Made by a program: the position numbers and the translations under genes | The notes under the pieces: generated by a model | Seen by the model: only the letters and a program-made list of their open reading frames with translations | Told to the model about the DNA's origin: nothing | Databases searched by the model: none | Shown: piece after piece, positions 865 through 15,905 of the stretch | Position numbering within the stretch: the stretch's first letter is position 1 | Layout: every line of letters begins with the position of its first letter | Source: a virus | UHGV virus genome: UHGV-0073206 | Reading direction: 5' to 3' (one strand) | DNA length: 22,430 nt

Positions 865-1263
865 TCCTTTATATTCAATGAAATAAGTTAGTTTTTAAAG
901 GGTTTTGTTGTTGAAAGAAACAGTATTGTATATTTCACCAAAATCAATCAGTTGCGTTCTAGTTTTGGAGAATGTTTTTTGAGGCTTTTTGTTAAAGCTT
1001 GTTATGCATTGCCTCAATTAATAACCTTTTTCCCAGCCCTCCCAACCGTTAAAAAGTCGGGAGGGCTTCAGGCACCAGTTGCAATTGATTTATTGGCCAA
1101 TACCAAACGCTCGGATTGAACCCAAATCCCCCAGGTTATTCAGTTCTTCCTTCATCTCCCGCTGACGTTGATAAATCTCGTGATTGCGATCGACCTGCGC
1201 CTGCGCCACCTGTCAGCGCACCTGATATCACTACAGACATAGTTTTTCTCGCGATAAATTAAA

Positions 1264-1794
1264 TCAGGAAGAGGCTTCCGGAGAGACGGGCCATTCAATG
1301 GCGTTATATGAGGTTTTATCAGTGATGGTGCTGAAATCCATCGCCTGCAGCGATTTCGCGTAAATGCGCCAGACTGTCAGCTTTTCTTTTTCTTCATCAC
1401 CGATGATTCCCAAAAGTAAATCCGTCTTCTTATCGGATATTTCCCGTTCGGCAATCGCAGTAAGACGTGCACGCTCCGACTCTGCCTGCTGCCTGTAGTC
1501 AACAGGGACCGGTAGTACTTCACCGTCTTTATAATACCAGCGCGCCTCTATACAAAAGCCATCCGGTAGTTCATCCACTTCCACAATGGTAAAACCAACG
1601 GGATAAAGACGGGATACATCTTCCGCCACGGAATAAATAACGCCGGTTTCAGGATGCGTGCACAGCTTGTATTTCTTCGTGAATTTATCCAGTGATTCAT
1701 AAAAATCCTGCCCGTCTTCACTACGGAAATACTGAATGCCGTCACCATAAGGCATGTCTTCAGGGTAGTAACGCGTAATGTTTGAGAGTTCCAT
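1264..1794 (-). CDS. Phage tail fiber assembly protein (Tfa family)
   Basis: Start at internal Met (MELSNITRYYPE...) preceded by strong SD AAGGAG; C-terminal region (...DLLLGIIGDEEKEKLTVWRIYAKSLQAMD...IEWP) resembles tail fiber assembly chaperones. The listed ORF 1264..1830 is an N-terminal over-extension. Confidence 0.65.
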   Translation of the reverse strand: MELSNITRYYPEDMPYGDGIQYFRSEDGQDFYESLDKFTKKYKLCTHPETGVIYSVAEDVSRLYPVGFTIVEVDELPDGFCIEARWYYKDGEVLPVPVDYRQQAESERARLTAIAEREISDKKTDLLLGIIGDEEKEKLTVWRIYAKSLQAMDFSTITDKTSYNAIEWPVSPEASS

Positions 1795-1808
1795 TATTTT
1801 CTCCTTAA

Positions 1809-2813
1809 TTAACCTGATACAGATCGCCATGCACCATTAATATAAATCTGAGCCTGTTTGTAATACACGCCACCGATATTGTCTGCAGAGTTACGGCCAG
1901 TATCCTGAACATTAATGCCTGACAAAACACAACCAGAAGGTGCTCGAAACGTCCAGCTGTGCTCGTTCTGGTCCTGAGTAAACGTGACTTCCGAAACAAG
2001 CAGTTCGGTATTGTCGAAACCACAGACCGGATCAAAGACAATCACCCGCTGGTTGGGTTGCCACAGCGTACCGTTACCCTGTCGCCAGCCCTGCACCACA
2101 TAGGTGGTTTCATCCGTCCGCGCCGCCCGTTGCCGGGCTTCAAAGTCAGCACGCGCAATACAGCCTGCCCCCGTAGCCTGCCCTGTCTGCCTGATATACA
2201 TCGGACGGTAACGGGCAATAAATGCGTCCTCTGTGCGGGCCCTCAGCGCGGTGGTGGTGGCCTCACCGAAATCATCGTCGTTTCCGGCACGCTGCCCCGC
2301 CACCTGGTAAACAGAAAACCGCTCCCGGATACTCTTCTCCGTATCGCAGGAAAGGATGTTTTCCCCGAGCACCAGCGCAGTATGCGCCCGCGTTGAGCCA
2401 ATACCGCCAATCACCAGCCTGCCGTGCGGGTCGTCGTAAGCCAGTGCCTGCTGCTGACCGAGTATTTTGTTGATTACCTCAATCACCGTTTCACCATGAT
2501 CGGGCTGGACGTCAGGAATAACACCCGACGGCGCACCGCTGTTCACCACCTCAATGCCGAAGGGCGCAGCAAGCGCCTGCGCAATCTGTACCAGCGATCG
2601 TCCGTTAAACTGTGTCGGTTCGGCTGCACAGTCAATCAGGTCAGCAGTCAGACTACGTCCGGCAATACCGGTGCTGACCGAACGGGCATCGTAACGAACG
2701 GGGGTCGCCTCCACCCAGCCGGTGATCACCAGTTCATCACCAATCAGCACCTCCACTTTTGAACCGTTTTTAATGCGCGGCTGAAGCGTGGTGATACCCC
2801 AGCTCGCGGACAT
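1809..2813 (-). CDS. Phage tail/baseplate protein (Mu gpP / late-control-D-like), probably a truncated or fused remnant
   Basis: 334 aa from Met with weak SD (GGGAAAG); soluble beta-rich composition typical of myophage baseplate proteins; lies between the tail tube gene and tfa where tape measure, baseplate and tail fiber genes would be expected. Family assignment is from recall and is weak. Confidence 0.4.
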   Translation of the reverse strand: MSASWGITTLQPRIKNGSKVEVLIGDELVITGWVEATPVRYDARSVSTGIAGRSLTADLIDCAAEPTQFNGRSLVQIAQALAAPFGIEVVNSGAPSGVIPDVQPDHGETVIEVINKILGQQQALAYDDPHGRLVIGGIGSTRAHTALVLGENILSCDTEKSIRERFSVYQVAGQRAGNDDDFGEATTTALRARTEDAFIARYRPMYIRQTGQATGAGCIARADFEARQRAARTDETTYVVQGWRQGNGTLWQPNQRVIVFDPVCGFDNTELLVSEVTFTQDQNEHSWTFRAPSGCVLSGINVQDTGRNSADNIGGVYYKQAQIYINGAWRSVSG

Positions 2814-2898
2814 CTTTCCCGGTGGGCTCATCAAACTCCAGTACGGAGAGTGTCTCGCCATGAGCGGTAATCGGTTTCTTTAACTCAAGCTCTTTCAT
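2770..2898 (-). pseudogene. Tail assembly chaperone fragment (42 codons: MKELELKKPITAHGETLSVLEFDEPTGKDVREL...)
   Basis: ATG overlaps the tube gene stop (TAATG) as in sheath-tube-chaperone modules; the frame terminates after 42 codons and overlaps the next ORF, consistent with a deletion removing the frameshift chaperone extension and the tape measure gene. Confidence 0.3.
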
Positions 2899-3254
2899 TA
2901 CTGGTAATCCCCTTCTTCACCGTGGAACTCAAGATCGACCGTGCCTTCTTCGGCATTATGGTTCGCTTCGCCGTGCAGCCAGGCAGACGACAGTACATAG
3001 ACCTGACCGTTCGCCAGCTCGGCAGTGATGGTCATCTCATCAGACGAGGTGATTTTGCTCACCGGAAAATTCTTCGGCACCTTGAAGGTCCCTTTGACAT
3101 AAGGCGCACGGTGAGTTTCCTTGCGGTCCACTGAACCGTCCAGGCCGATGATGTCATCATTGACCGTCCTGTTCATGGGCACCTCAATGCCGCCGGTCAG
3201 TGATAGCTGCTGACCGTCAATTTTGAAATAACAGGTTCCCCCGATACGGGCCAT
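2898..3254 (-). CDS. Phage tail tube protein (Mu gpM-like size)
   Basis: 118-aa ORF immediately downstream of the sheath fragment with start overlapping its stop; size and position match contractile-tail tube proteins. Confidence 0.5.
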   Translation of the reverse strand: MARIGGTCYFKIDGQQLSLTGGIEVPMNRTVNDDIIGLDGSVDRKETHRAPYVKGTFKVPKNFPVSKITSSDEMTITAELANGQVYVLSSAWLHGEANHNAEEGTVDLEFHGEEGDYQ

Positions 3255-4030
3255 TATGCAGACTCCTCTGAATACTGAAGACGGAACTGGTTAACCACGG
3301 CAAAGACACGCAACTGGTTAACATAGTCAGGCGGGAACAGCGTGTTCAGGCGGTTCGGATCGCTGGCATCACGCTCCACAACCAGGTACTGCTTGAACAG
3401 TTCGTAGTTTTCCACGATCCCCGCACGCTCGAGCTGACGGTAGGTTGCCAGCAGTTCCCCTTTGATCACCGCCGGGGTGACAATCGCCTGACCGGGACCA
3501 AAGCGGGTACCGTCACTGGCAAGCTTGTGACGCCCGTACTTACTGGTAATGACGGATTTCAGTTTGCGCAGTACATACGCGCTGGTATGCAGCGTCTCGC
3601 TGTCGAGGTAGCTGTTATCCGCAACCCCGTAAGCGTTTTTCCTGTACGTGGTGACATCACGCTGAATGCGCAGCACCCCGCTTTCGACATACGCCGTTGC
3701 CACGCCATGAGACAGCAGGGTCTGCTGCTCGGTCATTGTGAACCGTTTCCCCTTCGGCGCAGGCAGCATACCCACCAGCTCACCGGTCTGCGTGGGACGT
3801 GCCGGATCGTTGCGGATAAACACTGCCGCGCGGGCGGTACGGCTGGCTGCCAGCTCGTCGGCAGGCGTCTGGGTGTCTTTTTCGTACCCCGCCAGGGTAA
3901 TGTGCTGCTGGTTAAACTGGTCACCTGCGGTCACCAGTTCTGACAGCGTGCCGGTCTTTGCCGTATACACATGACCATACAGCTGACGCGCATAGCTCCA
4001 GCGACCGCTGGTATCGTTCATCTCGGTCAC
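3254..4030 (-). pseudogene. Tail sheath protein, C-terminal fragment
   Basis: 258-aa ORF directly upstream of the tube gene; sheath proteins are normally larger than 350 aa; the 5' end overlaps the out-of-frame tail of the terminase fragment, indicating a deletion junction near 4030-4090. Confidence 0.5.
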
Positions 4031-4595
4031 CGTCCTCCGGACGGCTCATGCTTTGAGCATGTACTTCAATACCAAATGCTTCACGCAATGGCTCCGTGCG
4101 TTGCGCCATCAGTCTGGCTGGACGAAAAACTTCCCACGCCTGTTTCTCTGTTGTGGCCCCGGAATACACTTCAGCGCCAAATTCATCATCGCAGGCAAAC
4201 ATATACAGACCAACGCCAGCAGACATTGCTGATTTCCCGTTTTTACGGGGTATTTCGTTGTAAGCCTCGCGAAATCGACGCAGACCGCTCTTTTTTCTCA
4301 CCCACCCAAACACAACACAGATACAGAACAACTGCCAGGGTTCAAGCGTAATGGGCATCCGCTTAAATGCCCACTCCCCTTTGGTGTGTGGCAAAAGCTG
4401 GATAAATTTCGCCACCCGCTCAGCTTTATCTTTATCAAATTTAAACGGATAGTTTTTTTTAACTGAATTTTCCAGGTCATCAAGGTGACGCTGGCAGGCT
4501 AGAACGACATAACGGCAAACCTGAATTTTTCCGCGAACCACGTCACGTGCATACTGATTTGCGGCATTAACGTTCACGTAATTTTTTCGTGTCAT
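3921..4595 (-). pseudogene. Terminase large subunit, N-terminal fragment (truncated)
   Basis: N-terminal ~180 aa ([20 protein letters not shown]...PITLEPWQ...[19 protein letters not shown]...) look like TerL and its ATG overlaps the terS stop; thereafter the frame carries low-quality sequence and ends at 3921. Full TerL would be more than 500 aa. Confidence 0.6.
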
Positions 4596-5062
4596 AGGTT
4601 TTTAAATGGATTATCGCTCCCCTGCTTCGGCGTGATAAGCCGCTGCCGACTGGCAGGATCGAGTCCTAATAAACTACCGAATGTCACCATTTGTCTGGCG
4701 GCCTCATTTGCCGCCGTGAGTGCCGGGTTTTTCTTTGGCCCCGCCTCACTCTCTACCGTAATCCCAACGCGCATAACCTCCTGCTGCGACTCATGCCAGT
4801 TGCGAAAAGCAGTGCAGAATGCAACGACGTTGTGCAAATCAGTAACATAAAGAACTCGCTGGGCACAGAGCTCACGAATAATGGTGTCCCACATATGACG
4901 AGCGGTTTCATCAAACCACTCGGGAGGCTCAGCATGGGTGATCGGCGTGAATTTTGGTTCAAACTTATTTAATGCCCGCTTGCCGGGATTGCCTGCCAGT
5001 TCCTTACGGGTAGTCGGCTTCGGCTTTCTCCCTCTTCCGGGCGCAACAGATTTTTCTGACAT
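4592..5062 (-). CDS. Phage terminase small subunit (P27 family-like)
   Basis: 156 aa, basic N-terminus ([21 protein letters not shown]), positioned immediately upstream of and overlapping TerL, downstream of an HNH endonuclease as in HK97-type packaging modules. Confidence 0.7.
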
Positions 5063-5085
5063 GTCAAATCCTGAAATTTTTAATT

Positions 5086-5165
5086 TCGCGGGTGTAAAAA
5101 TTTGACGAGGCGGGCGGTCCCGGACAGCCAGGGCTGCAGGGATTTGCCCCGCCCCTCCCTACAAG
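5086..5165. other. Candidate cos/packaging recognition region upstream of terS
   Basis: Intergenic GC-rich element (GGCGGGCGGTCC...GCCCCGCCCC) with partial dyad symmetry next to an AT-rich stretch, between the HNH and terS genes where cos sites lie in HNH-dependent cos phages. Confidence 0.25.
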
Positions 5166-5177
5166 TGAGAATAATTA

Positions 5178-5528
5178 TCACCTGATTCGTTCGCGCGCTG
5201 TTTTCGCTTTATGGCAGGGCCAGCACAGACTCTGCAGGTTGCTGTCTGCGTCTGTTCCGCCATGCGCTTTCGGGATGATGTGGTCGACGGTTTTCGCCTC
5301 GCTCACCACACCGGCACGCAGACACAACTGACACAGACCTTTATCGCGCTTCAGAATACGGGCACGAATCACCGTCCATTTTGAGCCATAGCCACGCTGG
5401 TGGCGGCTCAGTCCGCGCTGGTGCTGCACCCAGCCTTCACCACGATGTTTACCACAGTAGCCAGAACTGTCTGTTGTTGTGCCTGCGCAGCCTCGCTTAC
5501 GACAGGCGCGGGGGATCCGTGATGGCAT
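5178..5528 (-). CDS. HNH endonuclease (packaging-associated)
   Basis: Start at Met (MPSRIPRACRK...) preceded by SD AAGGAG; HNH motif DHIIPKAHGGTDADSNLQSLCWPCH and cysteine-rich N-terminus; sits upstream of terS. Confidence 0.75.
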   Translation of the reverse strand: MPSRIPRACRKRGCAGTTTDSSGYCGKHRGEGWVQHQRGLSRHQRGYGSKWTVIRARILKRDKGLCQLCLRAGVVSEAKTVDHIIPKAHGGTDADSNLQSLCWPCHKAKTARERIR

Positions 5529-5590
5529 TGGAATCTCCTTAATACCGACATTATCGCAGCCCCTCACTGAAGAGCTGCTGTAATGCCTGT

Positions 5591-5698
5591 TACTCACGAA
5601 TCAATCGAGCATGTTGACCGCTCATTTCAATGCGTAAGTATTGTGGCTTGCCGTCAATCAACGCGGTGATTAACTTATCACCTGTAGGTTTCCACATA
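5591..5698 (-). CDS. Small hypothetical protein (35 aa, MWKPTGDKLITALIDGKPQYLRIEMSGQHARLIRE)
   Basis: Not in the ORF track (below its size cutoff); ATG preceded by SD AGGAGA at good spacing; fills the gap between the lipoprotein gene and the HNH gene. Confidence 0.3.
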
Positions 5699-5870
5699 AT
5701 TTTCTCCTGTTTTAATGCCCCTTGCCGCCGGGCAGTTGATCAAAGTTCATCTTGATTCGGCAAGATTTAGAATGAATAAGATAAAATTGGCACACGCAGC
5801 AGAATTTCATGCTTTCCGGACGCTGACGCACCCTTCATTTTTCAGCAAAATATTCTGCTCTTACAGGCGA

Positions 5871-6053
5871 TCAGTTCTGCAGACACTGCCGAACACCGTC
5901 GACAATTTCACAGACCTGAGACGCGGTATCGAAAAGCTGGCGCGCCTTATCCAGGCTGACGCACCCCACCAATAAAAAAGGCACCAGTATCGCTACCAGT
6001 GCCCGTTTCACCGCCGTTCGCGGCATTCTGTGTGTCCAGTGTTTTCGCGCCAT
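5871..6053 (-). CDS. Small lipoprotein (signal peptide with lipobox LLVGC)
   Basis: 60-aa ORF with basic N-terminus, hydrophobic core and LVGC lipobox (MARKHWTHRMPRTAVKRALVAILVPFLLVGCVS...); ATG lies 1 nt after the stop of the upstream 37-aa ORF. Confidence 0.45.
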   Translation of the reverse strand: MARKHWTHRMPRTAVKRALVAILVPFLLVGCVSLDKARQLFDTASQVCEIVDGVRQCLQN

Positions 6054-6054
6054 A

Positions 6055-6168
6055 TCACCACCAACGCACAGCCCAAATCAGAACAGCGACCGCCACAAGG
6101 CGAATTGCAAAGGCCGCAGCCCTTGTCAAATCAAGGCTCGCGGGAGTTTCCATTTCAATACCTTTCAT
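6055..6168 (-). CDS. Small membrane protein (37 aa, one TM: AAAFAIRLVAVAVLIWAVRWW)
   Basis: Short ORF downstream of the endolysin terminator, translationally coupled to the lipoprotein ORF; below the ORF-track cutoff. Confidence 0.35.
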   Translation of the reverse strand: MKGIEMETPASLDLTRAAAFAIRLVAVAVLIWAVRWW

Positions 6169-6260
6169 AATGGACAACCTCAAAAAGAATCTTTTATACT
6201 TTCCCACGAGGATTTTCTCCGTACTCACTAATCACAATTTCCCCTTTGACGTGAAAACTA

Positions 6261-6298
6261 AAAACCCCGGACTGTTCCCCCAGCCGGGGTTTTGTTTT
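6261..6298. terminator. Bidirectional rho-independent terminator after the endolysin gene
   Basis: Stem CCCCGG(A)CTG / CAGCCGGGG flanked by A4 on one side and TTTTGTTTT on the other, giving a U-tract in either orientation. Confidence 0.6.
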
Positions 6299-6300
6299 AC

Positions 6301-6684
6301 TTATCGCTTCAGCTGAAAGTGAGGTCCGTCTTTCAGCGTTTTCCAGTCCCCGCCCCATTCGATAGCGATCCCCAGCTCTGCGGCAGCCTGCTTAAATGCC
6401 TGTGCGATTTTCTCGTACAGAGGCCACTCCCATGACACCTGACTGCCAATGTAGGCCACAACATCCACCGCATCACCGGTCAGGTGGCGGCTGTTCATGG
6501 TCTGGCTTTTCCCTTCCGCAACCAGCTGTTTCTGGCGATACTTACTGCGCAGGCCTTCCGTAATACCGAAATCAACCTCCGTCAGCTCCAGCGCACGGCG
6601 AACTACAGCAACCAGCTGTGGTTTGACACCCTCCAGATTTTTTTCACTGCGACGGCTGAATCTGAATTTACCCGGCATATTCAC
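6301..6684 (-). CDS. Endolysin, peptidase M15 family (L-alanyl-D-glutamate peptidase-like)
   Basis: 127 aa; motifs SRHLTGDAVDV and WGGDW...H match zinc-binding residues of M15/VanY-type phage endolysins; ATG overlaps the stop of the upstream membrane protein (ATGA). Confidence 0.8.
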   Translation of the reverse strand: MNMPGKFRFSRRSEKNLEGVKPQLVAVVRRALELTEVDFGITEGLRSKYRQKQLVAEGKSQTMNSRHLTGDAVDVVAYIGSQVSWEWPLYEKIAQAFKQAAAELGIAIEWGGDWKTLKDGPHFQLKR

Positions 6685-6956
6685 CTCAACAATGGAAAGA
6701 TTTTTGTGACGTTCCCGCGTGCGCGTATCACCAGCACGCAGAACAGCAGATTAAAAAACACTTCCAACCAGCCCGTTGCTAACGGGCGACCACACAGATA
6801 GCTGAGGGGCGCAAAGGCATACAGCAGCATCAGCAGCCAGGCCAGCCATGACACCAGCGGTTTATGCCTGGAATCACGGCGACGATAAAAAAAGAGCGTC
6901 AGCACGATAACCGCGCATAACGCCACATTCAGCAATCCGGGAAGGTTACTTAACAT
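6681..6956 (-). CDS. Holin/antiholin-like membrane protein
   Basis: 91 aa from Met MLSNLPGLLNVALCAVIVLTLFF..., 2-3 predicted TM segments; ATG overlaps the upstream holin stop and its stop overlaps the endolysin start. Confidence 0.5.
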   Translation of the reverse strand: MLSNLPGLLNVALCAVIVLTLFFYRRRDSRHKPLVSWLAWLLMLLYAFAPLSYLCGRPLATGWLEVFFNLLFCVLVIRARGNVTKIFPLLR

Positions 6957-7338
6957 TGCCGCCTCCTCCACCCCGCAGGCGGGAGAACACACCGGACACC
7001 AGCGATGCAATATCCTGCTGGTGGATGAACGAGAGAATCTTCACCGACACCACCGAGACCAGCACCGCGCAAAGCGCATCTGCTGATGTAGCGTCATACC
7101 CTGTTTTTGATGCAATCCAGGCTGACAGCACACGCGCTCCCAGCACGCCGACAATAAACGACACCAGAAAATGTGCCACCACGCGCCAGACTGAAAGTGA
7201 CTGTGGCATTGTTGCCACAAATAACGCCCCGGCGAACGCGCCAAACACAATCCCGAAATCCATCCCGGTAAACAGCCCGAATACCGTCGCGCCACCCAGC
7301 GCCGCAGCCGTGCCGGAACCGGATAAGGGTTCAGACAT
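6946..7338 (-). CDS. Putative holin
   Basis: 130 aa, Gly/Ala-rich hydrophobic segments (FGLFTGMDFGIVFGAFAGALFVA), strong SD AGGAGGAAGT before ATG; first gene of the lysis cassette. Confidence 0.5.
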   Translation of the reverse strand: MSEPLSGSGTAAALGGATVFGLFTGMDFGIVFGAFAGALFVATMPQSLSVWRVVAHFLVSFIVGVLGARVLSAWIASKTGYDATSADALCAVLVSVVSVKILSFIHQQDIASLVSGVFSRLRGGGGGNVK

Positions 7339-7394
7339 ACTTCCTCCTGAAAATAAAAAAGGGCCACCAGCGACCCGTAAAAAAACACCCCGTC

Positions 7395-10463: not shown

Positions 10464-10742
10464 TTACCTCCAGATGCGTTGCTGGAATGTGCGGGACGGA
10501 CGCGGTGGGCGTTCGGAATAAGGGAGCCTGACATAGATTATCCAGTGACGATAATCGAGGCTGAGGGCTTTCTTAATCTCGTATCCGTGTCTGCGGTAGC
10601 GCTGAATCAGCCATTCAGCCTGTTCTTCGGTGCAGGGATCGTGCTGATACCAGTCAGATTTGAATGCATGAGAACGCCGCCCGTGCCTGCTGGCAGGGGC
10701 GGCAGAGTTATCCGAATTGTAAAATTTGGTATCGTGCGCCAT
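10464..10742 (-). CDS. Hypothetical phage protein (92 aa)
   Basis: Start at internal Met MAHDTKFYNSDN...; basic Arg/His-rich protein, no recognised family; downstream of the hok terminator. Confidence 0.4.
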   Translation of the reverse strand: MAHDTKFYNSDNSAAPASRHGRRSHAFKSDWYQHDPCTEEQAEWLIQRYRRHGYEIKKALSLDYRHWIIYVRLPYSERPPRPSRTFQQRIWR

Positions 10743-10814
10743 CTGTTTTCTCTGCTGGCGCAGCAGGTGCCAGTTGTTCAGGCTGACGGATGGATTGTAA
10801 ACCAGAACGACCAG

Positions 10815-10840
10815 AAAAAACAAAACCCGCCGAAGCGGGT
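10815..10840 (-). terminator. Rho-independent terminator of the hok transcript
   Basis: On the minus-strand transcript: CCCGC-UUCG-GCGGG followed by UUUUGUUUUUU. Confidence 0.6.
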
Positions 10841-10909
10841 TAAGTGCGGGTGCGTTGAGGATGCCTGACACATCAGCGGTGGCGAGGGATTTCTCCCCCG
10901 CCGGGTCTC

Positions 10910-11065
10910 TTACTCCTCAGGTTCGTAAGCTGTGAAGACAGCGACCTCCGTCTGGCCGGTTCGGATTCGTACCTCGCAGAGGTCTTTCCTCGTTACCAGT
11001 GCCGTCACTATGACGGTTAAACAGATGACGATCAGGGCGATTAACATCGCCTTTTGCTGCTTCAT
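10910..11065 (-). CDS. hok: Hok/Gef-family type I toxin (51 aa)
   Basis: MKQQKAMLIALIVICLTVIVTALVTRKDLCEVRIRTGQTEVAVFTAYEPEE: single TM helix followed by the conserved C...R..GQ/T.EV.A...YE motif of Hok/Gef toxins. Confidence 0.85.
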   Translation of the reverse strand: MKQQKAMLIALIVICLTVIVTALVTRKDLCEVRIRTGQTEVAVFTAYEPEE

Positions 11066-11122
11066 AGCCTGCTTCTCCTTGCCTTTCGGCACGTAAGAGG
11101 CTAACCTACATTTGTGAGACAT
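10910..11122 (-). CDS. mok: Mok-like N-terminally extended frame overlapping hok (translational-coupling ORF)
   Basis: 70-aa in-frame extension (MSHKCRLASYVPKGKEKQA + Hok); the size relationship matches recalled mok/hok pairs. Not independently verifiable here. Confidence 0.35.
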   Translation of the reverse strand: MSHKCRLASYVPKGKEKQAMKQQKAMLIALIVICLTVIVTALVTRKDLCEVRIRTGQTEVAVFTAYEPEE

Positions 11123-11241
11123 AGATTGGGCCTCAGATTAATGTTAAGCGTCTTGCAGGACGCGTAATGTTAACTGGGGCTTTTCTCTATCTGCCTTTTG
11201 GTGTTCATGCCTGAGACAGATAGCCTCAAGCACCCGCAGTT

Positions 11242-11269
11242 ATTCTACTTAACTAAGATTTCCCCGCAA
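11242..11269 (-). promoter_or_regulatory. Candidate hok promoter (-35 TTGCGG, 16-nt spacer, -10 TAGAAT)
   Basis: Hexamers read on the minus strand; the predicted start falls just upstream of a 5' segment (plus 11224-11239) complementary to the 3' segment (plus 10844-10860), like the tac/fbi fold-back pairing of hok mRNAs. Confidence 0.4.
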
Positions 11270-11324
11270 ACCGTTTTTGTCCGGCACAGTAAATATCCAA
11301 CTAAACCAATGGCGTTCGCTGTAT

Positions 11325-11543
11325 TTACCGCCAGCATTCAATGCACATGACCGCCATGAACACCCCTAAAAAAAGGGCATTTATATGTCCAAACATTAAT
11401 ATCAAAACATCAATTTTTTCCATATACCTTGCTGTGAAGATGATGGGCATACATGATGCGAACAACCAGAACGCAACAAACAAAAACTGCAATGCGTTTT
11501 TCATTATTCCCCCTACAATCAATGTGCAATAACATTTAAACAC
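11325..11543 (-). CDS. Small hydrophobic membrane protein (59-72 aa, two TM segments)
   Basis: AT-rich ORF; MKNALQFLFVAFWLFASCMPIIF...INALFLGVFMAVMCIECW; no recognised family; adjacent to the hok locus. Confidence 0.4.
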   Translation of the reverse strand: MFKCYCTLIVGGIMKNALQFLFVAFWLFASCMPIIFTARYMEKIDVLILMFGHINALFLGVFMAVMCIECWR

Positions 11544-11624
11544 ACCTCAATTTGGCCGGACATATAAATATCTAAACCAGAAAAAATCACTTACATAGCG
11601 TTACAAACTCTTTAGTCTAAATAT

Positions 11625-12140
11625 TCATCGTAAAACATCCTCCACGCTTATCAGTCCATTTCGTTTCAGGTAATCCATCGCCTTCTCCGGTAATTTGCAG
11701 TCCGGCTGAGCTTTTTTCAGTTGACTGACCAGTCGTTTAACCCACATTGTTAATTCGCTAACCTGATTGCCGGATGCTGGTGGATTGTCGGCTTTACCCA
11801 GAATGGCAGCGCAGCAGGCCTCTCTGAGCACCCAGTCAACAGCATCCTTCCATGCTCCTGTTTCGACTGGCGGATTCTCACGCTTTACCTGTTCATAAAA
11901 GCGCACGGCTTTAACCAGTCCTTCTGATGTCACCGGGACTGGCGGGCCGATGAATAAGGCCTGAATTTCATAGTTCGGCCTGTCGTTACAATCCTCTTTT
12001 GTCGGTACATATTTCCAGTCACCAGCCCACGGCTTCCCCTGAAAGTCTGTAACGTCTTTTTTCACGTAGCGATATCGCCATGCAACTGGTTTTGCCTGCC
12101 CTGCCGTTTCATGCCCTTCCTGATAATTAATCTCGCTCAT
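11625..12140 (-). CDS. Hypothetical phage protein (171 aa)
   Basis: Soluble, Trp/Pro-rich N-terminal half, start overlapping the upstream gene stop (ATGA); no confident family. Confidence 0.5.
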   Translation of the reverse strand: MSEINYQEGHETAGQAKPVAWRYRYVKKDVTDFQGKPWAGDWKYVPTKEDCNDRPNYEIQALFIGPPVPVTSEGLVKAVRFYEQVKRENPPVETGAWKDAVDWVLREACCAAILGKADNPPASGNQVSELTMWVKRLVSQLKKAQPDCKLPEKAMDYLKRNGLISVEDVLR

Positions 12141-12313
12141 TCATCGCCCCACTCATCACAATATGCTTCGACCGGAGTTTTTCCTGCTTCATAATCATCA
12201 CGCCATGCTTCAGCATCAGCAGCACTGCCACCACGTAACTCTGCATAGTCCATTAACAGTTCATGCCATTCTTCAAAACTGACGTTGTATTTAGTTGAAC
12301 CAAAATCAGCCAT
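12137..12313 (-). CDS. Hypothetical small protein (58 aa)
   Basis: MADFGSTKYNVSFEEWHELLMDYAELRGG...; SD GAGGAAG; start overlaps the end of the acidic ORF upstream and the stop overlaps the next gene start; below the ORF-track cutoff. Confidence 0.4.
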   Translation of the reverse strand: MADFGSTKYNVSFEEWHELLMDYAELRGGSAADAEAWRDDYEAGKTPVEAYCDEWGDE

Positions 12314-12488
12314 TTTGTTCTTCCTCTTCGTCTTTTATTTCGTGATATGAGTAATTGCAGTAGTTAAAGAAAATATCTTTTGCTTCGTCATGTATTTCAT
12401 CAGGCGTCGCATCATCATCCACTTCGAATTCATCCTCGAAATCTCCACCGGCTATTCCCGTTTCAATAATTATTTTAAACTTTCGCAT
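12306..12488 (-). CDS. Small highly acidic protein (60 aa)
   Basis: MRKFKIIIETGIAGGDFEDEFEVDDDATPDEIHDEAKDIFFNYCNYSYHEIKDEEEEQNG; Asp/Glu-rich throughout; a GC hairpin (GCCGCCCGAAAGGGCGG) sits between a distal SD-like AGGAGG and the ATG. Confidence 0.45.
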   Translation of the reverse strand: MRKFKIIIETGIAGGDFEDEFEVDDDATPDEIHDEAKDIFFNYCNYSYHEIKDEEEEQNG

Positions 12489-12581
12489 TTAACTACCGCC
12501 CTTTCGGGCGGCCTCCTGATGTTCTGAGGGTGCAGAAATCCCTCCGGTTAAGGATTAAATTTTTAACAGAGCTAAATTTAA

Positions 12582-12938
12582 TTATTCAGTTCTGGATTTT
12601 GTCGCCCTGCGTATCCGCGCTTTCGCGTTACGCTCAATCTGAATTAGCTTTTCTATATTTTTTCGCCTTTCCCGCTCCTCCTGACGCAAGAGCCTTACAT
12701 CATCTGCCAGTCTGGTTTCTCTTTTCGCCACAGAGAGCATCCAGTCAAATGGCTCCACAACTGCACCGCAGATTTTACAGCGGACCTGACGCTCTTTTTC
12801 GTCAACCCGGACAGAGGCGTGATGACAATATGGTCTTTCCGATGGCTCATAAAGAAAATTAACCTGATTACGAGGGTCATCCTCTTTTACCGGAAATAAA
12901 ACGATATTGCTTAACTCATCCTCTGGTTTTATTTCCAT
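12582..12938 (-). CDS. Hypothetical protein with zinc-ribbon-like C-H...C-x2-C motif and Arg-rich coiled-coil tail
   Basis: 118 aa; PYCHHASVRVDEKERQVRCKICG then RLLRQEERERRKNIEKLIQIERNAKARIRR; no confident family. Confidence 0.5.
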   Translation of the reverse strand: MEIKPEDELSNIVLFPVKEDDPRNQVNFLYEPSERPYCHHASVRVDEKERQVRCKICGAVVEPFDWMLSVAKRETRLADDVRLLRQEERERRKNIEKLIQIERNAKARIRRATKSRTE

Positions 12939-13018
12939 GCTCCTCTCCTTTGATGCGAATGCCAGCGACGCGTAATGCGTGTTCTAGGTCAATCAGGTAA
13001 AGCCAACTGCCATTTTCT

Positions 13019-13213
13019 TTAGGTACCCGAACGATTCAGGATTTTTTCCACCCGCAACTGGCGATTCTGGCGGTTGATCTCCTCGCTACGTTTTCGCCCT
13101 TCTGCCAGTTGCCACTCGCGCCACTCGTCCACTGTCCGGTACGGCGCGATTACATGCTGCGGGGTCAGCTTACGGATACGCTCAAGAACACCACCTGTCG
13201 CGATATTTTTCAT
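13019..13213 (-). CDS. Hypothetical small protein (64 aa)
   Basis: ORF immediately downstream of the replication gene, Arg-rich C-terminus; no recognised family. Confidence 0.4.
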   Translation of the reverse strand: MKNIATGGVLERIRKLTPQHVIAPYRTVDEWREWQLAEGRKRSEEINRQNRQLRVEKILNRSGT

Positions 13214-14997: not shown

Positions 14998-15399
14998 ATG
15001 ATGAACGCCCTAGAAGTATCTATGTACAGAATCAGCAAGCTTCTTCAGGAAACTGGATGGAGCCAGGCTGAGCTTGCCCGTAGAATTGGTGTGACACAAC
15101 AAACTGTTCAACAATGGGTCAGCGGTAAGGCTACACCTAAAGCCTCAAGTTTGGATAAACTGGTTGAGGTTACAGGGCATCCATTGCATTGGTTTTTATT
15201 GCCTCCTGAAGAGGGGGAGCAAATTTTCACCCCTGACACGATGAAAATTGGTCCTCGTCAACGCGAACTGCTCCAGGCTTTTAGTGCGTTTCCAGAGGAA
15301 GACCAAGAAAAAATGCTTCAAGAAATCAAAGACAAGAAAAAATCAATGGAAGAAACCATTGCCCGGTGGTTGGCGGCACAAAAAAGCCGCCGGGCGTGA
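14998..15399 (+). CDS. XRE-family HTH repressor (PaaR2/RacR-like), candidate prophage repressor
   Basis: 133 aa; HTH (GWSQAELARRIGVTQQTVQQWVSGK) then HPLHWFLLPPEE; occupies the cI position divergent from the cro-like gene and directly upstream of the antitoxin/toxin pair. Confidence 0.75.
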   Translation: MMNALEVSMYRISKLLQETGWSQAELARRIGVTQQTVQQWVSGKATPKASSLDKLVEVTGHPLHWFLLPPEEGEQIFTPDTMKIGPRQRELLQAFSAFPEEDQEKMLQEIKDKKKSMEETIARWLAAQKSRRA

Positions 15400-15426: not shown

Positions 15427-15618
15427 ATGAGTACAGCCCTTTCTCCGATAGTTTCAGAATTCGAAACTACCGAACAAGAAAACAGTTACAACGAATGGTT
15501 ACGCGCTAAAGTGGCGTCAAGCCTTGCAGACCCTCGTCCCTCAATTCCACATGATGAGGTAATGGCTGAAATGGAGAATCTTATTGCTCAAATTGCTGTA
15601 ACTAACAGGAGCGAGTAA
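15427..15618 (+). CDS. paaA2: PaaA2-like antitoxin
   Basis: 63 aa; SPIVSEFETTEQENSYNEWLRAKVASSLADPRPSIPHDEV matches the recalled PaaA2 antitoxin of the PaaR2-PaaA2-ParE2 module; SD AGGAG 9 nt upstream; stop overlaps the toxin start (TAATG). Confidence 0.7.
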   Translation: MSTALSPIVSEFETTEQENSYNEWLRAKVASSLADPRPSIPHDEVMAEMENLIAQIAVTNRSE

Positions 15619-15905
15619 TGTTACCCATTTTGTGGCTACCATCTGCTCGCGATGATTTGCGTCAGATCGTAGCCTATATTGCTAAGGAAAATATTCCTGC
15701 AGCACGCAGACTAAAAATACGGATTGAAACGTCTGTTTTAGCCCTCTCTGAGCATCCATATCTATATCCGCCAAGTGATCGAGTATCCGGTTTGCGGGAA
15801 ATTGTGGTTCACCCTAATTATATCGTTTTGTACCGAGTAGCAGCTTCAAGCATTGAAATTGCAAATATTGTGCATGCCCGCCGACAATTTCCCTTCCCTA
15901 TCTGA
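15618..15905 (+). CDS. parE2: ParE/RelE-superfamily toxin (ParE2-like)
   Basis: 95 aa; ParE-like features (DDLRQIVAYIAKENIPAARRL...LSEHPYLYPPSDRVSGLREIVVHPNYIVLYRV); translationally coupled to the antitoxin. Confidence 0.8.
   Translation: MLPILWLPSARDDLRQIVAYIAKENIPAARRLKIRIETSVLALSEHPYLYPPSDRVSGLREIVVHPNYIVLYRVAASSIEIANIVHARRQFPFPI

What the first reader, a model, noticed from the sequence alone, without database searches (positions are those of the whole stretch)
10815..11270. Apparently complete hok/mok locus with long-range 5'-3' complementarity and its own promoter and terminator
Besides the 51-aa Hok toxin and the in-frame mok extension, the transcript region shows the features needed for regulated hok expression: a candidate promoter (-35 TTGCGG, -10 TAGAAT at 11242-11269), a 5' segment (plus 11224-11239, CCTCAAGCACCCGCAG) complementary to a 3' segment (plus 10844-10860, GTGCGGGTGCGTTGAGG) as in tac/fbi fold-back pairing, and a terminator (10815-10840). 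Many chromosomal hok copies are decayed, so an intact one in a degraded prophage suggests active post-segregational killing. The Sok antisense gene should lie on the plus strand around 11060-11180 but I could not place its promoter confidently.
Basis: partly seen in the sequence, partly recalled or inferred. Interest (0 to 1): 0.4.

Follow-up and report, generated by a model that had tools for sequence, protein, structure and literature searches.

The report
Complete prophage hok/mok/sok toxin-antitoxin locus
This is an intact copy of a well-known small RNA-controlled toxin-antitoxin module (hok/sok, of the hokD/hokW type) that sits in most E. coli prophages, so it is real and correctly recognised but ordinary.

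Summary
On the minus strand of 10815-11270 there is a 51-aa Hok ORF that is 100% identical to K-12 HokD, an in-frame 70-aa mok ORF, a hok mRNA leader scoring 120 bits against Rfam RF01794, a 12-bp 5'-3' (tac/fbi) pairing and a GC hairpin plus T-run terminator. The pairing has probability at least 0.91 in the fold of the 420-nt transcript. It is kept in all 35 aligned homologues, with compensatory U:A to C:G changes.

The missing Sok gene can now be placed on the plus strand: -35 TTGCCT at 11079-11084, -10 TAACCT at 11102-11107, and the RNA at about 11114-11184. This promoter is identical to that of sokW of phage 933W/Sp5. Mutating the sokW -10 hexamer abolished its antitoxin activity (PMC8621323).

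The locus is 92% identical to the annotated hokW/mokW/sokW. Copies covering at least 80% of it occur in 3831 of 5426 complete E. coli genomes, where they are annotated hokD. K-12 hokD is the 5'-truncated form.

The prophage is indeed degraded, with about 16 kb of morphogenesis genes deleted. An intact copy is the rule rather than the exception, and post-segregational killing is not shown. The only demonstrated role of the closest relative is to aid lysis on prophage induction. Verdict: already known, low interest.

The parts
11264..11269 (-). hok promoter, candidate -35 (TTGCGG)
   Evidence: Read from the sequence. Conserved in 933W but not in Rac442. Matches 3 of 6 consensus bases and was not reported by the generic scan.
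11242..11247 (-). hok promoter, candidate -10 (TAGAAT), 6 nt upstream of the inferred start G11235
   Evidence: invariant in the window, 933W and Rac442. The R1-type locus L007 has the same geometry: TATGAT, 6 nt, then GGCGCUUGAGG.
10816..11235 (-). Predicted full-length hok mRNA (about 420 nt)
   Evidence: The 5' end is set by the start of the Rfam RF01794 match and the 3' end by the terminator. MFE is -167.3 kcal/mol, z = -6.1. The projected structure is 84.5% paired across 35 homologues, against about 42% for slid controls.
11224..11235 (-). tac element (GGGUGCUUGAGG), the 5' partner of the fold-back helix
11207..11217 (-). Segment that pairs with tac in the nascent or 3'-truncated RNA (5' metastable hairpin)
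   Evidence: Folds of the first 35-175 nt and of the truncated RNA. A metastable tac hairpin is described for R1 (PMC9841398).
11176..11182 (-). ucb / anti-SD (AAGCCCC). It pairs with the mok SD region in the closed form and with tac in the Rfam 'open' structure.
   Evidence: Rfam consensus structure. All seven tac-ucb pairs are standard base pairs. In the closed fold the SD G bases have unpaired probability 0.
11131..11134 (-). mok Shine-Dalgarno GAGG, 8 nt upstream of the mok AUG; part of dcb and of the Sok target
   Evidence: GAGG is present upstream of the mok start in all 35 homologues. GAGG is the mok SD in R1 (PMC9841398).
10910..11122 (-). mok ORF (70 aa), in frame with hok and sharing its stop
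   Evidence: The mokW annotation in 933W has the same geometry.
11075..11080 (-). hok Shine-Dalgarno AAGGAG; overlaps the Sok -35 on the other strand
   Evidence: Sequence. CAAGGAG is conserved in 34 of the 35 homologues; the Pantoea locus has a 3-base gap inside it.
10910..11065 (-). hok ORF (51 aa): 100% identical to K-12 HokD/RelF, 92% to HokW, 40% to R1 Hok
   Evidence: PF01848, 81.6 bits.
10924..10927 (-). TACG at Tyr47, the TadA A-to-I editing motif (Tyr to Cys)
   Evidence: Sequence. Invariant in all 35 homologues. Editing of hokD at this residue is reported in PMC5630033.
10881..10902 (-). 3'-UTR GC hairpin (GGCGGGGGAGAAAUCCCUCGCC); inferred 3' end of the processed, active mRNA
   Evidence: It is helix 16: 88.5% paired, with 4 pairs changed on both sides. 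In R1, mutations in the last stem-loop of the truncated mRNA destabilise it (PMC9841398).
10848..10860 (-). fbi element (CCUCAACGCACCC), the 3' partner of tac
10815..10841 (-). Intrinsic terminator (AACCCGCTTCGGCGGGTT followed by TTGTTTTTT)
   Evidence: Shared with K-12 hokD, whose homology to the window runs to 10816.
11079..11084 (+). Sok promoter -35 (TTGCCT)
   Evidence: A TTGNCN hexamer lies here in all 35 homologues. The sequence is identical to 933W.
11102..11107 (+). Sok promoter -10 (TAACCT), with a 17-nt spacer
   Evidence: This is the same hexamer that was mutated in the sokW promoter-less construct; primer YO-421 changes TAGGTTA to CCGGCTC on the hok strand (PMC8621323).
11114..11184 (+). 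Sok antisense RNA (about 71 nt): a 14-nt single-stranded 5' tail, a long hairpin, then GGGGCUUUU
   Evidence: Coordinates transferred from the sokW feature of AF125520. Fold is -31.1 kcal/mol, z = -4.6. The hairpin corresponds to helix 4: 89% paired, with 6 pairs changed on both sides.

Best explanation
The region is a complete type I toxin-antitoxin module of the hok/sok family. Its subtype is the one NCBI's PGAP pipeline calls hokD and phage 933W calls hokW/mokW/sokW. It sits in the early-gene region of a degraded lambdoid prophage integrated next to potB.

The mechanism below is inferred by homology to R1 hok/sok and to hokW-sokW; I mark which steps are shown here.

1. A weak promoter (11269-11242) makes a roughly 420-nt hok mRNA. 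The sequence elements are shown here; transcription is inferred.
2. The full-length RNA is locked closed by the 12-bp tac/fbi helix. In that state the mok Shine-Dalgarno GAGG is paired with the upstream ucb box, so neither ribosomes nor Sok can act. Folding and covariation are shown here.
3. Slow 3' trimming back to the GC hairpin at 10881-10902 removes fbi. tac can then pair with ucb, which exposes the mok SD and the Sok target. The pairing potential is shown here. The switch itself is inferred from R1 and was not reproduced as the MFE.
4. mok translation runs into the hok start and drives hok translation. The ORF geometry is shown here; the coupling is inferred.
5. The short-lived 71-nt Sok, made from its own promoter on the plus strand, pairs with the mok initiation region. 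This blocks translation and triggers RNase III cleavage. The promoter and RNA are placed by homology; the activity was shown for sokW.
6. When Sok synthesis stops, through loss of the DNA or through prophage induction, the stable processed hok mRNA is translated and Hok depolarises the inner membrane.

Which trigger matters in this host is not known.
For: - Family matches: Rfam RF01794 scores 120.1 bits against a gathering score of 59, over the full model. Pfam HOK_GEF scores 81.6 bits.
- Close relatives: the locus is 92% identical over 90% of its length to 933W, where hokW, mokW and sokW are annotated. Copies at 98-99% identity are annotated hokD in E. coli genomes. The Hok protein is identical to K-12 HokD.
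- tac/fbi helix: present in the MFE with pair probabilities of 0.91-1.0. It is kept in all 35 homologues from Escherichia, Shigella, Kluyvera, Pseudocitrobacter, Photorhabdus, Pantoea and an R1-type plasmid, with compensatory changes.
- Whole structure: 53 pairs are changed on both sides, against 18-31 in the slid controls.
- Closed versus open fold: closed is favoured by 10.6 kcal/mol in the full-length RNA, but by only 2.8 kcal/mol after 3' truncation.
- mok: an ORF starting 8-9 nt after GAGG and reaching at least the hok AUG is present in all 35 homologues.
- Sok promoter: the -35, spacer and -10 are identical to sokW, whose -10 mutation abolished antitoxin activity. The promoter geometry is conserved in all 35.
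- Literature: the tac/fbi/ucb/dcb model is summarised in PMC9841398. HokW toxicity, SokW antitoxicity and partial RNase III/Hfq dependence are shown in PMC8621323. HokD is toxic when expressed.
Against: - Nothing was measured in this strain.
- Neither promoter reaches the threshold of the consensus scan. hok matches 8 of 12 positions and Sok 7 of 12.
- The Sok terminator was not picked up by the simple terminator scan.
- Nearest-neighbour folding of the 3'-truncated RNA gives the 5' metastable hairpin as the MFE, not the open tac-ucb fold. The mok SD stays paired in that ensemble.
- The tac sequence itself is almost invariant. Direct covariation in the tac/fbi helix therefore rests on a few positions and on a few lineages (Photorhabdus, Pantoea, R1).
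- Native chromosomal hokA, hokB and hokC loci were reported not to mediate post-segregational killing.
Confidence: 0.93

Rival explanations
1. The module is structurally intact but its role here is the one shown for hokW-sokW, not maintenance. On SOS induction of the prophage, Sok disappears and Hok is made. This damages the membrane before holin and endolysin act and so accelerates lysis. In this defective prophage that would only contribute to cell death, not to phage release.
For: PMC8621323 reports that sokW RNA vanishes after mitomycin C. It also reports RecA-dependent HokW production about 1 h before endolysin, and a two-fold drop in phage release in the deletion mutant. The window keeps the immunity region (a cI-like HTH ORF at 14998-15399), the Q-like antiterminator and the lysis genes. 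The module and its Sok promoter are near-identical to hokW-sokW.
Against: About 16 kb of head and tail genes are deleted, so there is no progeny to release and no selective benefit for a phage. The Hok C-terminus (TAYEPEE against VDYESEK) and the 3' end (own terminator against none in 933W) differ from HokW. Inducibility of this remnant is unknown.
Confidence: 0.35
2. The locus acts as an addiction (post-segregational or post-deletion killing) module. It penalises loss of this prophage segment.
For: Every regulatory element required for the R1-type mechanism is present and under structural constraint. R1 hok/sok and pnd mediate post-segregational killing. The three deletions in this prophage spared the early region that carries the module.
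Against: [quoted passage not shown] Decayed and truncated copies of this very locus exist: L012, and K-12 hokD, which lacks the whole leader. The same slot holds unrelated toxin-antitoxin modules in related prophages. Loss or replacement is therefore tolerated. No stabilisation test has been done for hokD/hokW-type loci in the papers read.
Confidence: 0.3
3. The module serves the host as an abortive-infection defence against other phages. Shut-off of host transcription on infection depletes Sok and releases Hok.
For: R1 hok/sok on a high-copy plasmid reduced T4 plating efficiency by 42% and plaque size by about 85% (cited in PMC8621323). [quoted passage not shown]
Against: No enrichment of hok next to defence systems was found. 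The effect was reported only for a high-copy R1 construct. Nothing has been tested for the hokD/hokW type.
Confidence: 0.15
4. The features are chance matches or a dead relic, with no functional RNA structure or antisense gene.
For: The promoter hexamers are weak and were not found by the consensus scan. A 14-mer can find duplexes of similar energy in shuffled 260-nt GC-rich sequence (minima of the shuffles).
Against: The full-length Rfam match has E = 3e-27. The ORFs are intact. The pairing partner sits at the same position in all homologues with intact hok, and shows compensatory changes. The structure is 84.5% paired against 42% for slid controls. The Sok promoter is identical to an experimentally validated one.
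Confidence: 0.02

Closest known systems
hokW/mokW/sokW of Stx2 phage 933W and Sakai prophage Sp5 (GenBank AF125520; Takada et al. 2021, PMC8621323)
   Same: Same architecture and the same kind of genomic host, a lambdoid (pro)phage. Nucleotide identity is 92% over 90% of the locus. tac, ucb, fbi, the hok SD and the whole Sok promoter are identical. mok is in frame in both, 70 aa. Hok is 92% identical.
   Different: - The last seven Hok residues differ (TAYEPEE against VDYESEK).
- The Sok 5' tail and the first mok codons differ at about 8 positions.
- The window has a GC hairpin terminator right after fbi. In 933W the homology ends there and no such hairpin follows.
- The host prophage here is defective.
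hokD (relF) of E. coli K-12, cryptic prophage Qin
   Same: The Hok protein is identical. DNA identity is 98.9% over window 10816-11079, which covers the hok SD, ORF, 3' UTR hairpin, fbi and terminator.
   Different: K-12 homology stops 14 nt upstream of the hok AUG. relBE sits there instead, so K-12 lacks the promoter, tac, ucb, the mok start, the Sok target and the Sok gene. There is no Rfam leader hit in K-12. The window holds the complete form of which K-12 hokD is the truncated remnant.
hok/sok (parB) of plasmid R1, the prototype
   Same: The order of elements is the same: promoter, tac, ucb, Sok target and mok SD, mok, hok, 3' hairpin, fbi, terminator. tac is GGCGCUUGAGG against GGGUGCUUGAGG here. 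The Sok promoter is at the same place with a 17-nt spacer (TTGCGC/TATCCT against TTGCCT/TAACCT). The mechanism is taken from this system (PMC9841398).
   Different: Hok is only 40% identical. R1 mok is in the +1 frame relative to hok, whereas here it is in frame. The R1 tac/fbi helix has an internal mismatch instead of a bulge. R1 is plasmid-borne with proven post-segregational killing.
hokC (gef)/mokC/sokC-type chromosomal loci
   Same: Hok is 82% identical (sequence recalled from memory and used only as a query). tac is the same, fbi is similar (UCUUCAACGCACCC), and mok is in frame in most copies.
   Different: The leader is shorter, about 150 nt against 170 nt, because of a shorter Sok-hairpin region. 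The Sok -35 is TTGACC. The locus is at a fixed chromosomal position rather than in a prophage.

Membership tests
[quoted passage not shown] | Small (about 50 aa) Hok/Gef-family membrane toxin ORF | tested here: met
   51-aa ORF at 10910-11065. Pfam PF01848 scores 81.6 bits against a cut-off of 22. Identical to K-12 HokD.
[quoted passage not shown] | hok mRNA leader with the conserved sequence and structure (Rfam RF01794, which models the hok-sense leader) | tested here: met
   120.1 bits against a gathering score of 59, model positions 1-157 of 157, at 11235-11060 on the minus strand.
[quoted passage not shown] | Overlapping mok reading frame that starts in the Sok target region behind its own SD and reaches the hok start | tested here: met
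   mok is 10910-11122, with GAGG 8 nt upstream. The same arrangement is found in 35 of 35 homologues, although the frame varies.
[quoted passage not shown] | Long-range tac/fbi pairing between the 5' end and the 3' UTR of the full-length mRNA | tested here: met
   12 bp with one bulge. Present in the MFE with probability 0.91-1.0. Conserved with compensatory changes in 35 homologues.
[quoted passage not shown] | Alternative tac/ucb pairing that opens the mok SD after 3' processing | tested here: inconclusive
   Seven standard tac-ucb pairs are possible and form the Rfam consensus. The open fold is 10.6 kcal/mol worse than the closed one in the full-length RNA. It is still 2.8 kcal/mol worse than the MFE after truncation. 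The processing itself cannot be tested with these tools.
[quoted passage not shown] | cis-encoded antisense Sok RNA with its own promoter, complementary to the mok translation initiation region | tested here: met
   On sequence criteria only. TTGCCT, 17 nt, TAACCT at 11079-11107, identical to the sokW promoter. The predicted 71-nt RNA has a 5' tail, a hairpin and a U-run. Coordinates were transferred from the sokW annotation. Expression was not tested.
[quoted passage not shown] | Hok toxicity neutralised by Sok | not testable with these tools
   Shown for the 92%-identical hokW-sokW (PMC8621323). HokD toxicity on expression is reported.
[quoted passage not shown] | Post-segregational killing or stabilisation phenotype | not testable with these tools
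   Shown for R1 and pnd. Reported absent for native chromosomal hokA, hokB and hokC. Not reported for the hokD/hokW type in the papers read.
hokW-sokW (933W/Sp5) subtype | High nucleotide identity across leader, ORFs and fbi, inside a lambdoid prophage | tested here: met
   91.9% identity over query positions 10-453. Alignment A1. The neighbours are a DUF968 protein and a Q-like antiterminator, and the prophage layout is shown.
K-12 relBE-hokD (relBEF) operon arrangement | hokD lies directly downstream of relE, without its own leader or sok | tested here: not met
   The window has the full 170-nt leader and no relBE upstream of hok. A RelE/ParE-family ORF exists elsewhere in the window, at 15618-15905.

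The most novel reading that the evidence does not exclude
The part of the locus that sets Sok-target recognition is the Sok 5' tail, which overlaps the mok start (hok nt 101-130, window about 11106-11135). It is the most variable stretch of an otherwise near-invariant leader. Co-resident copies in one genome carry different tails: three different tails in the three intact copies of S. flexneri SFBU1023. This could reflect diversifying selection that keeps the several hok/sok copies of one cell insulated from each other. Loss of one prophage would then not be rescued by the Sok of another. The window's tail variant, shared with E. coli L011, would be one such specificity allele.
Probability: 0.25. 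Interest if true: 0.35.

Novelty: already known. Interest (0 to 1): 0.1.

Why it matters
It matters little beyond correct annotation.

- The window shows the complete form of the locus of which the textbook K-12 hokD/relF is a 5'-truncated remnant.
- It lets mok and Sok be annotated; automatic pipelines label only the hok CDS.
- It shows the strand of the Rfam 'sok' match. RF01794 matches the hok-sense leader, so a hit to it should not be read as the antisense gene.

If someone wanted to test whether prophage hok/sok modules stabilise defective prophages, an intact module in a clearly defective prophage would be a convenient natural case. The module itself is common and its closest relative has already been characterised.

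Tried and rejected
- The generic sigma-70 scan of 10600-11500 found no promoter on either strand. Both promoters are below its 9-of-12 threshold, so they rest on homology.
It was repeated with three close sequences. That is why the homologue set is biased to hokD/hokC-like loci and contains only one R1-type sequence.
- The first R1-type plasmid locus fetched (L005) turned out to have IS150 inserted in the leader. It was replaced by L007.
- RNAduplex on 120-nt against 210-nt flanks gave meaningless long interactions. It was replaced by a 14-mer tac query. With that query, energies alone were not clearly better than mononucleotide shuffles, so the argument rests on position and covariation.
- MAFFT put the 3' half of the fbi helix one column out of register in the sequences without the bulge. 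This inflates the 'not paired' cells for columns 7-12 of helix 1. Per-sequence duplexes show that all 35 pair.
- My first tac-ucb constraint was off by one; it was corrected.
- Folding the 3'-truncated RNA did not reproduce the published open conformation as the MFE.
- I considered and rejected the idea that the locus is the K-12-type relBEF arrangement.
- I also rejected the idea that the extra complementarity claimed at 11236-11239 is part of the RNA helix. It lies upstream of the inferred start and is not conserved in hokC-type loci.
Full report
**What is there**

Read on the minus strand, window 10815-11270 contains the following, in order.
- A weak promoter-like pair: TTGCGG at 11269-11264, a 16-nt spacer, and TAGAAT at 11247-11242.
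- A G-rich start at 11235.
- A 170-nt leader.
- A 70-codon ORF (mok, 11122-10910).
- In the same frame and with the same stop, a 51-codon ORF (hok, 11065-10910).
- A 95-nt 3' UTR, ending in a GC hairpin plus T-run.

The mok/hok product matches Pfam HOK_GEF at 81.6 bits. The Hok part is 100% identical to K-12 HokD, 92% to HokW of phage 933W and 40% to Hok of R1. The leader matches Rfam RF01794 over the whole model, at 120.1 bits against a gathering score of 59, from 11235 to 11060. That model lies on the hok-sense strand and ends at the hok AUG. It describes the hok mRNA leader, not the antisense RNA. The same holds in 933W, where the Rfam match is on the strand of hokW and opposite to the annotated sokW. 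The terminator scan finds the stem-loop at 10841-10824 followed by TTGTTTTTT. The generic promoter scan finds nothing, because both promoters of the locus fall below its threshold.

**The 5'-3' complementarity**

- The 420-nt RNA from 11235 to 10816 folds to -167.3 kcal/mol (z = -6.1 against dinucleotide shuffles). Its first 12 nt, GGGUGCUUGAGG, pair with CCUCAA(C)GCACCC at 10860-10848.
- The twelve pairs have probabilities of 0.91-1.0 in the ensemble. In that fold the G residues of the mok Shine-Dalgarno GAGG are fully paired with the upstream AAGCCCC box.

To test whether the pairing is more than chance I collected homologues. These were 933W, an E. coli Rac-like phage, an IncY phage-plasmid, an R1-type IncF plasmid, and 54 loci from a scan of one genome per species.
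- In nearly every locus with an intact hok, the best partner of the 5' 14-mer lies 45-56 nt after the stop codon.
- In an alignment of 35 distinct full-length transcripts (A4) all 35 form an 11-12 bp duplex.
- Position 4 is U:A in 26 sequences and C:G in 9 (Photorhabdus, Pantoea, R1-type), and never unpaired.
- Photorhabdus also changes G12:C to A12:U and lacks the bulge.
- Projecting the window's MFE onto A4 gives 84.5% of cells paired, against 38-43% when partners are slid by 1-3 columns. There are 53 pairs with changes on both sides against 18-31, and the covariation score is 0.170 against about 0.065.

The structure was derived from one member of the alignment, which favours it somewhat, but the margin is large.

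**Placing Sok**

On the plus strand there is TTGCCT (11079-11084), a 17-nt spacer and TAACCT (11102-11107).
- In the 933W record, sokW is annotated as a 71-nt RNA. Transferred through the alignment, its ends correspond to window 11114-11184.
- The -35, spacer and -10 are identical between the window and 933W.
- Takada et al. made a promoter-less sokW with primers that change TAGGTTA to CCGGCTC on the hok strand. On the Sok strand this changes TAACCT to GAGCCG. It unmasked HokW toxicity, which sokW supplied in trans partly relieved (PMC8621323).
- The same promoter geometry (TTGNCN, about 17 nt, TAnnCT-like) occurs at this place in all 35 homologues, including R1 (TTGCGC/TATCCT). The -35 overlaps the hok Shine-Dalgarno on the other strand.
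- The predicted Sok folds into a 14-nt single-stranded 5' tail, a long hairpin and GGGGCUUUU (-31.1 kcal/mol, z = -4.6). The corresponding helix on the hok strand shows six pairs changed on both sides (helix 4).

**How it most likely works**

The model comes from R1, as summarised in PMC9841398.
- The full-length mRNA is inert because tac/fbi holds a fold in which ucb sequesters the mok SD.
- Slow 3' trimming removes fbi. tac then pairs with ucb, and the mok SD and the Sok target open.
- Mok translation drives Hok translation, unless Sok binds and the duplex is cut by RNase III.
- A metastable 5' hairpin prevents premature activation during transcription.

Every element has its counterpart here.
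- The tac/fbi helix (above).
- The seven standard tac-ucb pairs that form the Rfam consensus structure.
- The metastable hairpin, nt 3-13 with nt 19-29.
- A conserved GC hairpin at 10881-10902, where trimming would stop (helix 16).
- A mok ORF that begins 8 nt after GAGG and reaches hok.

Across the 35 homologues mok is in frame with hok in 22. It is in the +1 frame in 10, including R1. In 3 it is a 19-codon ORF ending at the hok AUG.

The energetics agree only partly. The closed fold beats the open one by 10.6 kcal/mol in the full-length RNA. After removal of the 3' end it beats it by only 2.8 kcal/mol, but the open fold is still not the MFE. The switch itself is therefore inferred, not shown.

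**Comparison with what is known**

- The locus is 92% identical to hokW/mokW/sokW of 933W, VT2-Sakai and other Stx phages. It is 95-97% identical to copies in other E. coli phages.
- In complete E. coli genomes, 4951 of 5426 have a match and 3831 have a copy covering at least 80% of the 491-nt query. The median is two places per genome, and the CDS is annotated hokD.
- K-12 hokD aligns only with window 10816-11079 (98.9%). Upstream of that, K-12 has relE, and no Rfam leader is found. The window therefore carries the complete form of a locus whose K-12 copy is a truncated remnant.
- A recent survey reports that Hok genes are four-fold enriched in prophages and that HokD is toxic when expressed (bioRxiv 10.1101/2025.08.07.668861).
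- hokW-sokW has been shown to be a functional type I toxin-antitoxin system. Its Sok disappears on prophage induction, and it accelerates lysis and doubles phage yield.

The finding is thus a correct recognition of an already known and very common element.

**Context and the functional inference**

The window starts in potB and then runs through a lambdoid prophage up to its integrase.
- Compared with the intact prophage at the same site in E. coli TD225-C4, three blocks are missing: L006 4618-9779, 10618-14279 and 15517-22862, about 16 kb of baseplate, tail, head, portal and terminase genes. 'Degraded prophage' is therefore confirmed.
- The step from 'intact module in a degraded prophage' to 'active post-segregational killing' is not supported. 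Intact copies are the norm.
- Decayed copies also exist: L012, with deletions in tac, and K-12.
- The same slot holds ParDE in TD225-C4 and relBE plus a hok stump in K-12. The module can therefore be lost or replaced.
- Native chromosomal hok loci tested earlier did not give post-segregational killing.

I rate the identity of the element at 0.93. The biological roles are overlapping, non-exclusive hypotheses: lysis helper 0.35, addiction 0.3, phage defence 0.15.

**Verdict**

Novelty: already known. Interest: 0.1.

The least ordinary thing seen is that the Sok recognition tail is the most variable part of the leader. Identity there is 0.80-0.85, against 0.94-1.0 in the flanks, among 13 hokD-type loci. 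It also differs between co-resident copies. This hints at insulation between paralogous modules, but it was not tested further.

Noticed in passing
window 11060-11235 (minus); L001 2887-3061: Rfam RF01794, named 'sok antitoxin', matches the hok-sense strand and ends at the hok AUG. In 933W it lies on the strand of hokW, opposite to the annotated sokW. A hit to this family therefore marks the hok mRNA leader (about 176 nt). It gives neither the strand nor the extent of the 71-nt Sok RNA.
   Followed up: yes
window 10785-13026; L006 30676-34348; L004: The slot between the small ORF upstream of the DUF968 gene and the ead/replication genes is a swap site for toxin-antitoxin modules. The window has hok/sok here, the otherwise 96-98% identical prophage of E. 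coli TD225-C4 has ParD/ParE, and K-12 Qin has relBE plus a truncated hokD.
   Followed up: partly
window 15618-15905 (+), with a relB-like ORF just upstream: The same prophage carries a second toxin-antitoxin module next to the cI-like repressor gene. It has a RelE/ParE-family toxin (Pfam PF05016, E = 6.6e-16), and the region is homologous to the annotated relB/relE pair of TD225-C4.
   Followed up: partly
window 1123-7383 compared with L006 3773-26232: Three internal deletions, of about 5.2, 3.7 and 7.3 kb, remove the baseplate, tape-measure, tail, head, portal and part of the terminase genes. The lysis genes, the Q-like antiterminator, the replication and immunity regions and the integrase are kept. 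ARAGORN finds no tRNA genes in the window, whereas the intact relative has three between the lysis genes and the methyltransferase gene.
   Followed up: partly
window 10924-10927 (minus): Tyr47 of Hok is encoded by TAC followed by G. This is the TadA A-to-I editing motif reported to recode the equivalent Tyr of hokC, hokD and hokE to Cys (PMC5630033). TACGAA is invariant in all 35 aligned homologues, at the DNA level as well.
   Followed up: partly
window about 11106-11135 (hok nt 101-130); loci L014, L016, L024: The Sok 5' tail, which overlaps the mok start, is the most variable stretch of the leader among hokD-type loci. The three intact copies in one S. flexneri genome each have a different tail, while the Sok hairpin is nearly identical. 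This may insulate co-resident copies from each other.
   Followed up: partly
alignment A4 (35 loci): The mok reading frame is not conserved relative to hok. It is in frame in 22 loci, in the +1 frame in 10, and a 19-codon ORF ending at the hok AUG in 3. The SD-AUG geometry and the reach to the hok start are conserved throughout.
   Followed up: yes
L019, L029, L035; phage record PP818812.1: Hok loci 96-100% identical to the E. coli type occur in assemblies labelled as a Veillonella parvula MAG, Acinetobacter idrijaensis and Xanthomonas pisi (short contigs). One also occurs in an 'Actinobacillus phage'. These are most likely contamination or mislabelled hosts rather than true distribution.
   Followed up: no
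L012 (E. coli ECMA0423, 1947710-1949062): This is a decayed copy of the same locus. The hok ORF is intact and the 3' flank is the same as in the window, but several small deletions inside tac and the leader mean no tac motif is found. It shows how these modules erode from the regulatory 5' end.
   Followed up: no
L001 3283-3330 compared with window 10815-10847: In 933W the homology ends right after fbi, and the GC hairpin terminator present in the window, K-12 and the Rac-like phage is absent. The next gene (L0136) starts about 70 nt later, so hokW transcripts may read through or end differently.
   Followed up: no
window 11325-11543 (minus) and 11625-12140 (minus): The two ORFs directly upstream of the hok promoter have no Pfam match. 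One is 72 aa and hydrophobic; the other is 171 aa. This segment (10785-13026) has no counterpart in the TD225-C4 prophage.
   Followed up: no
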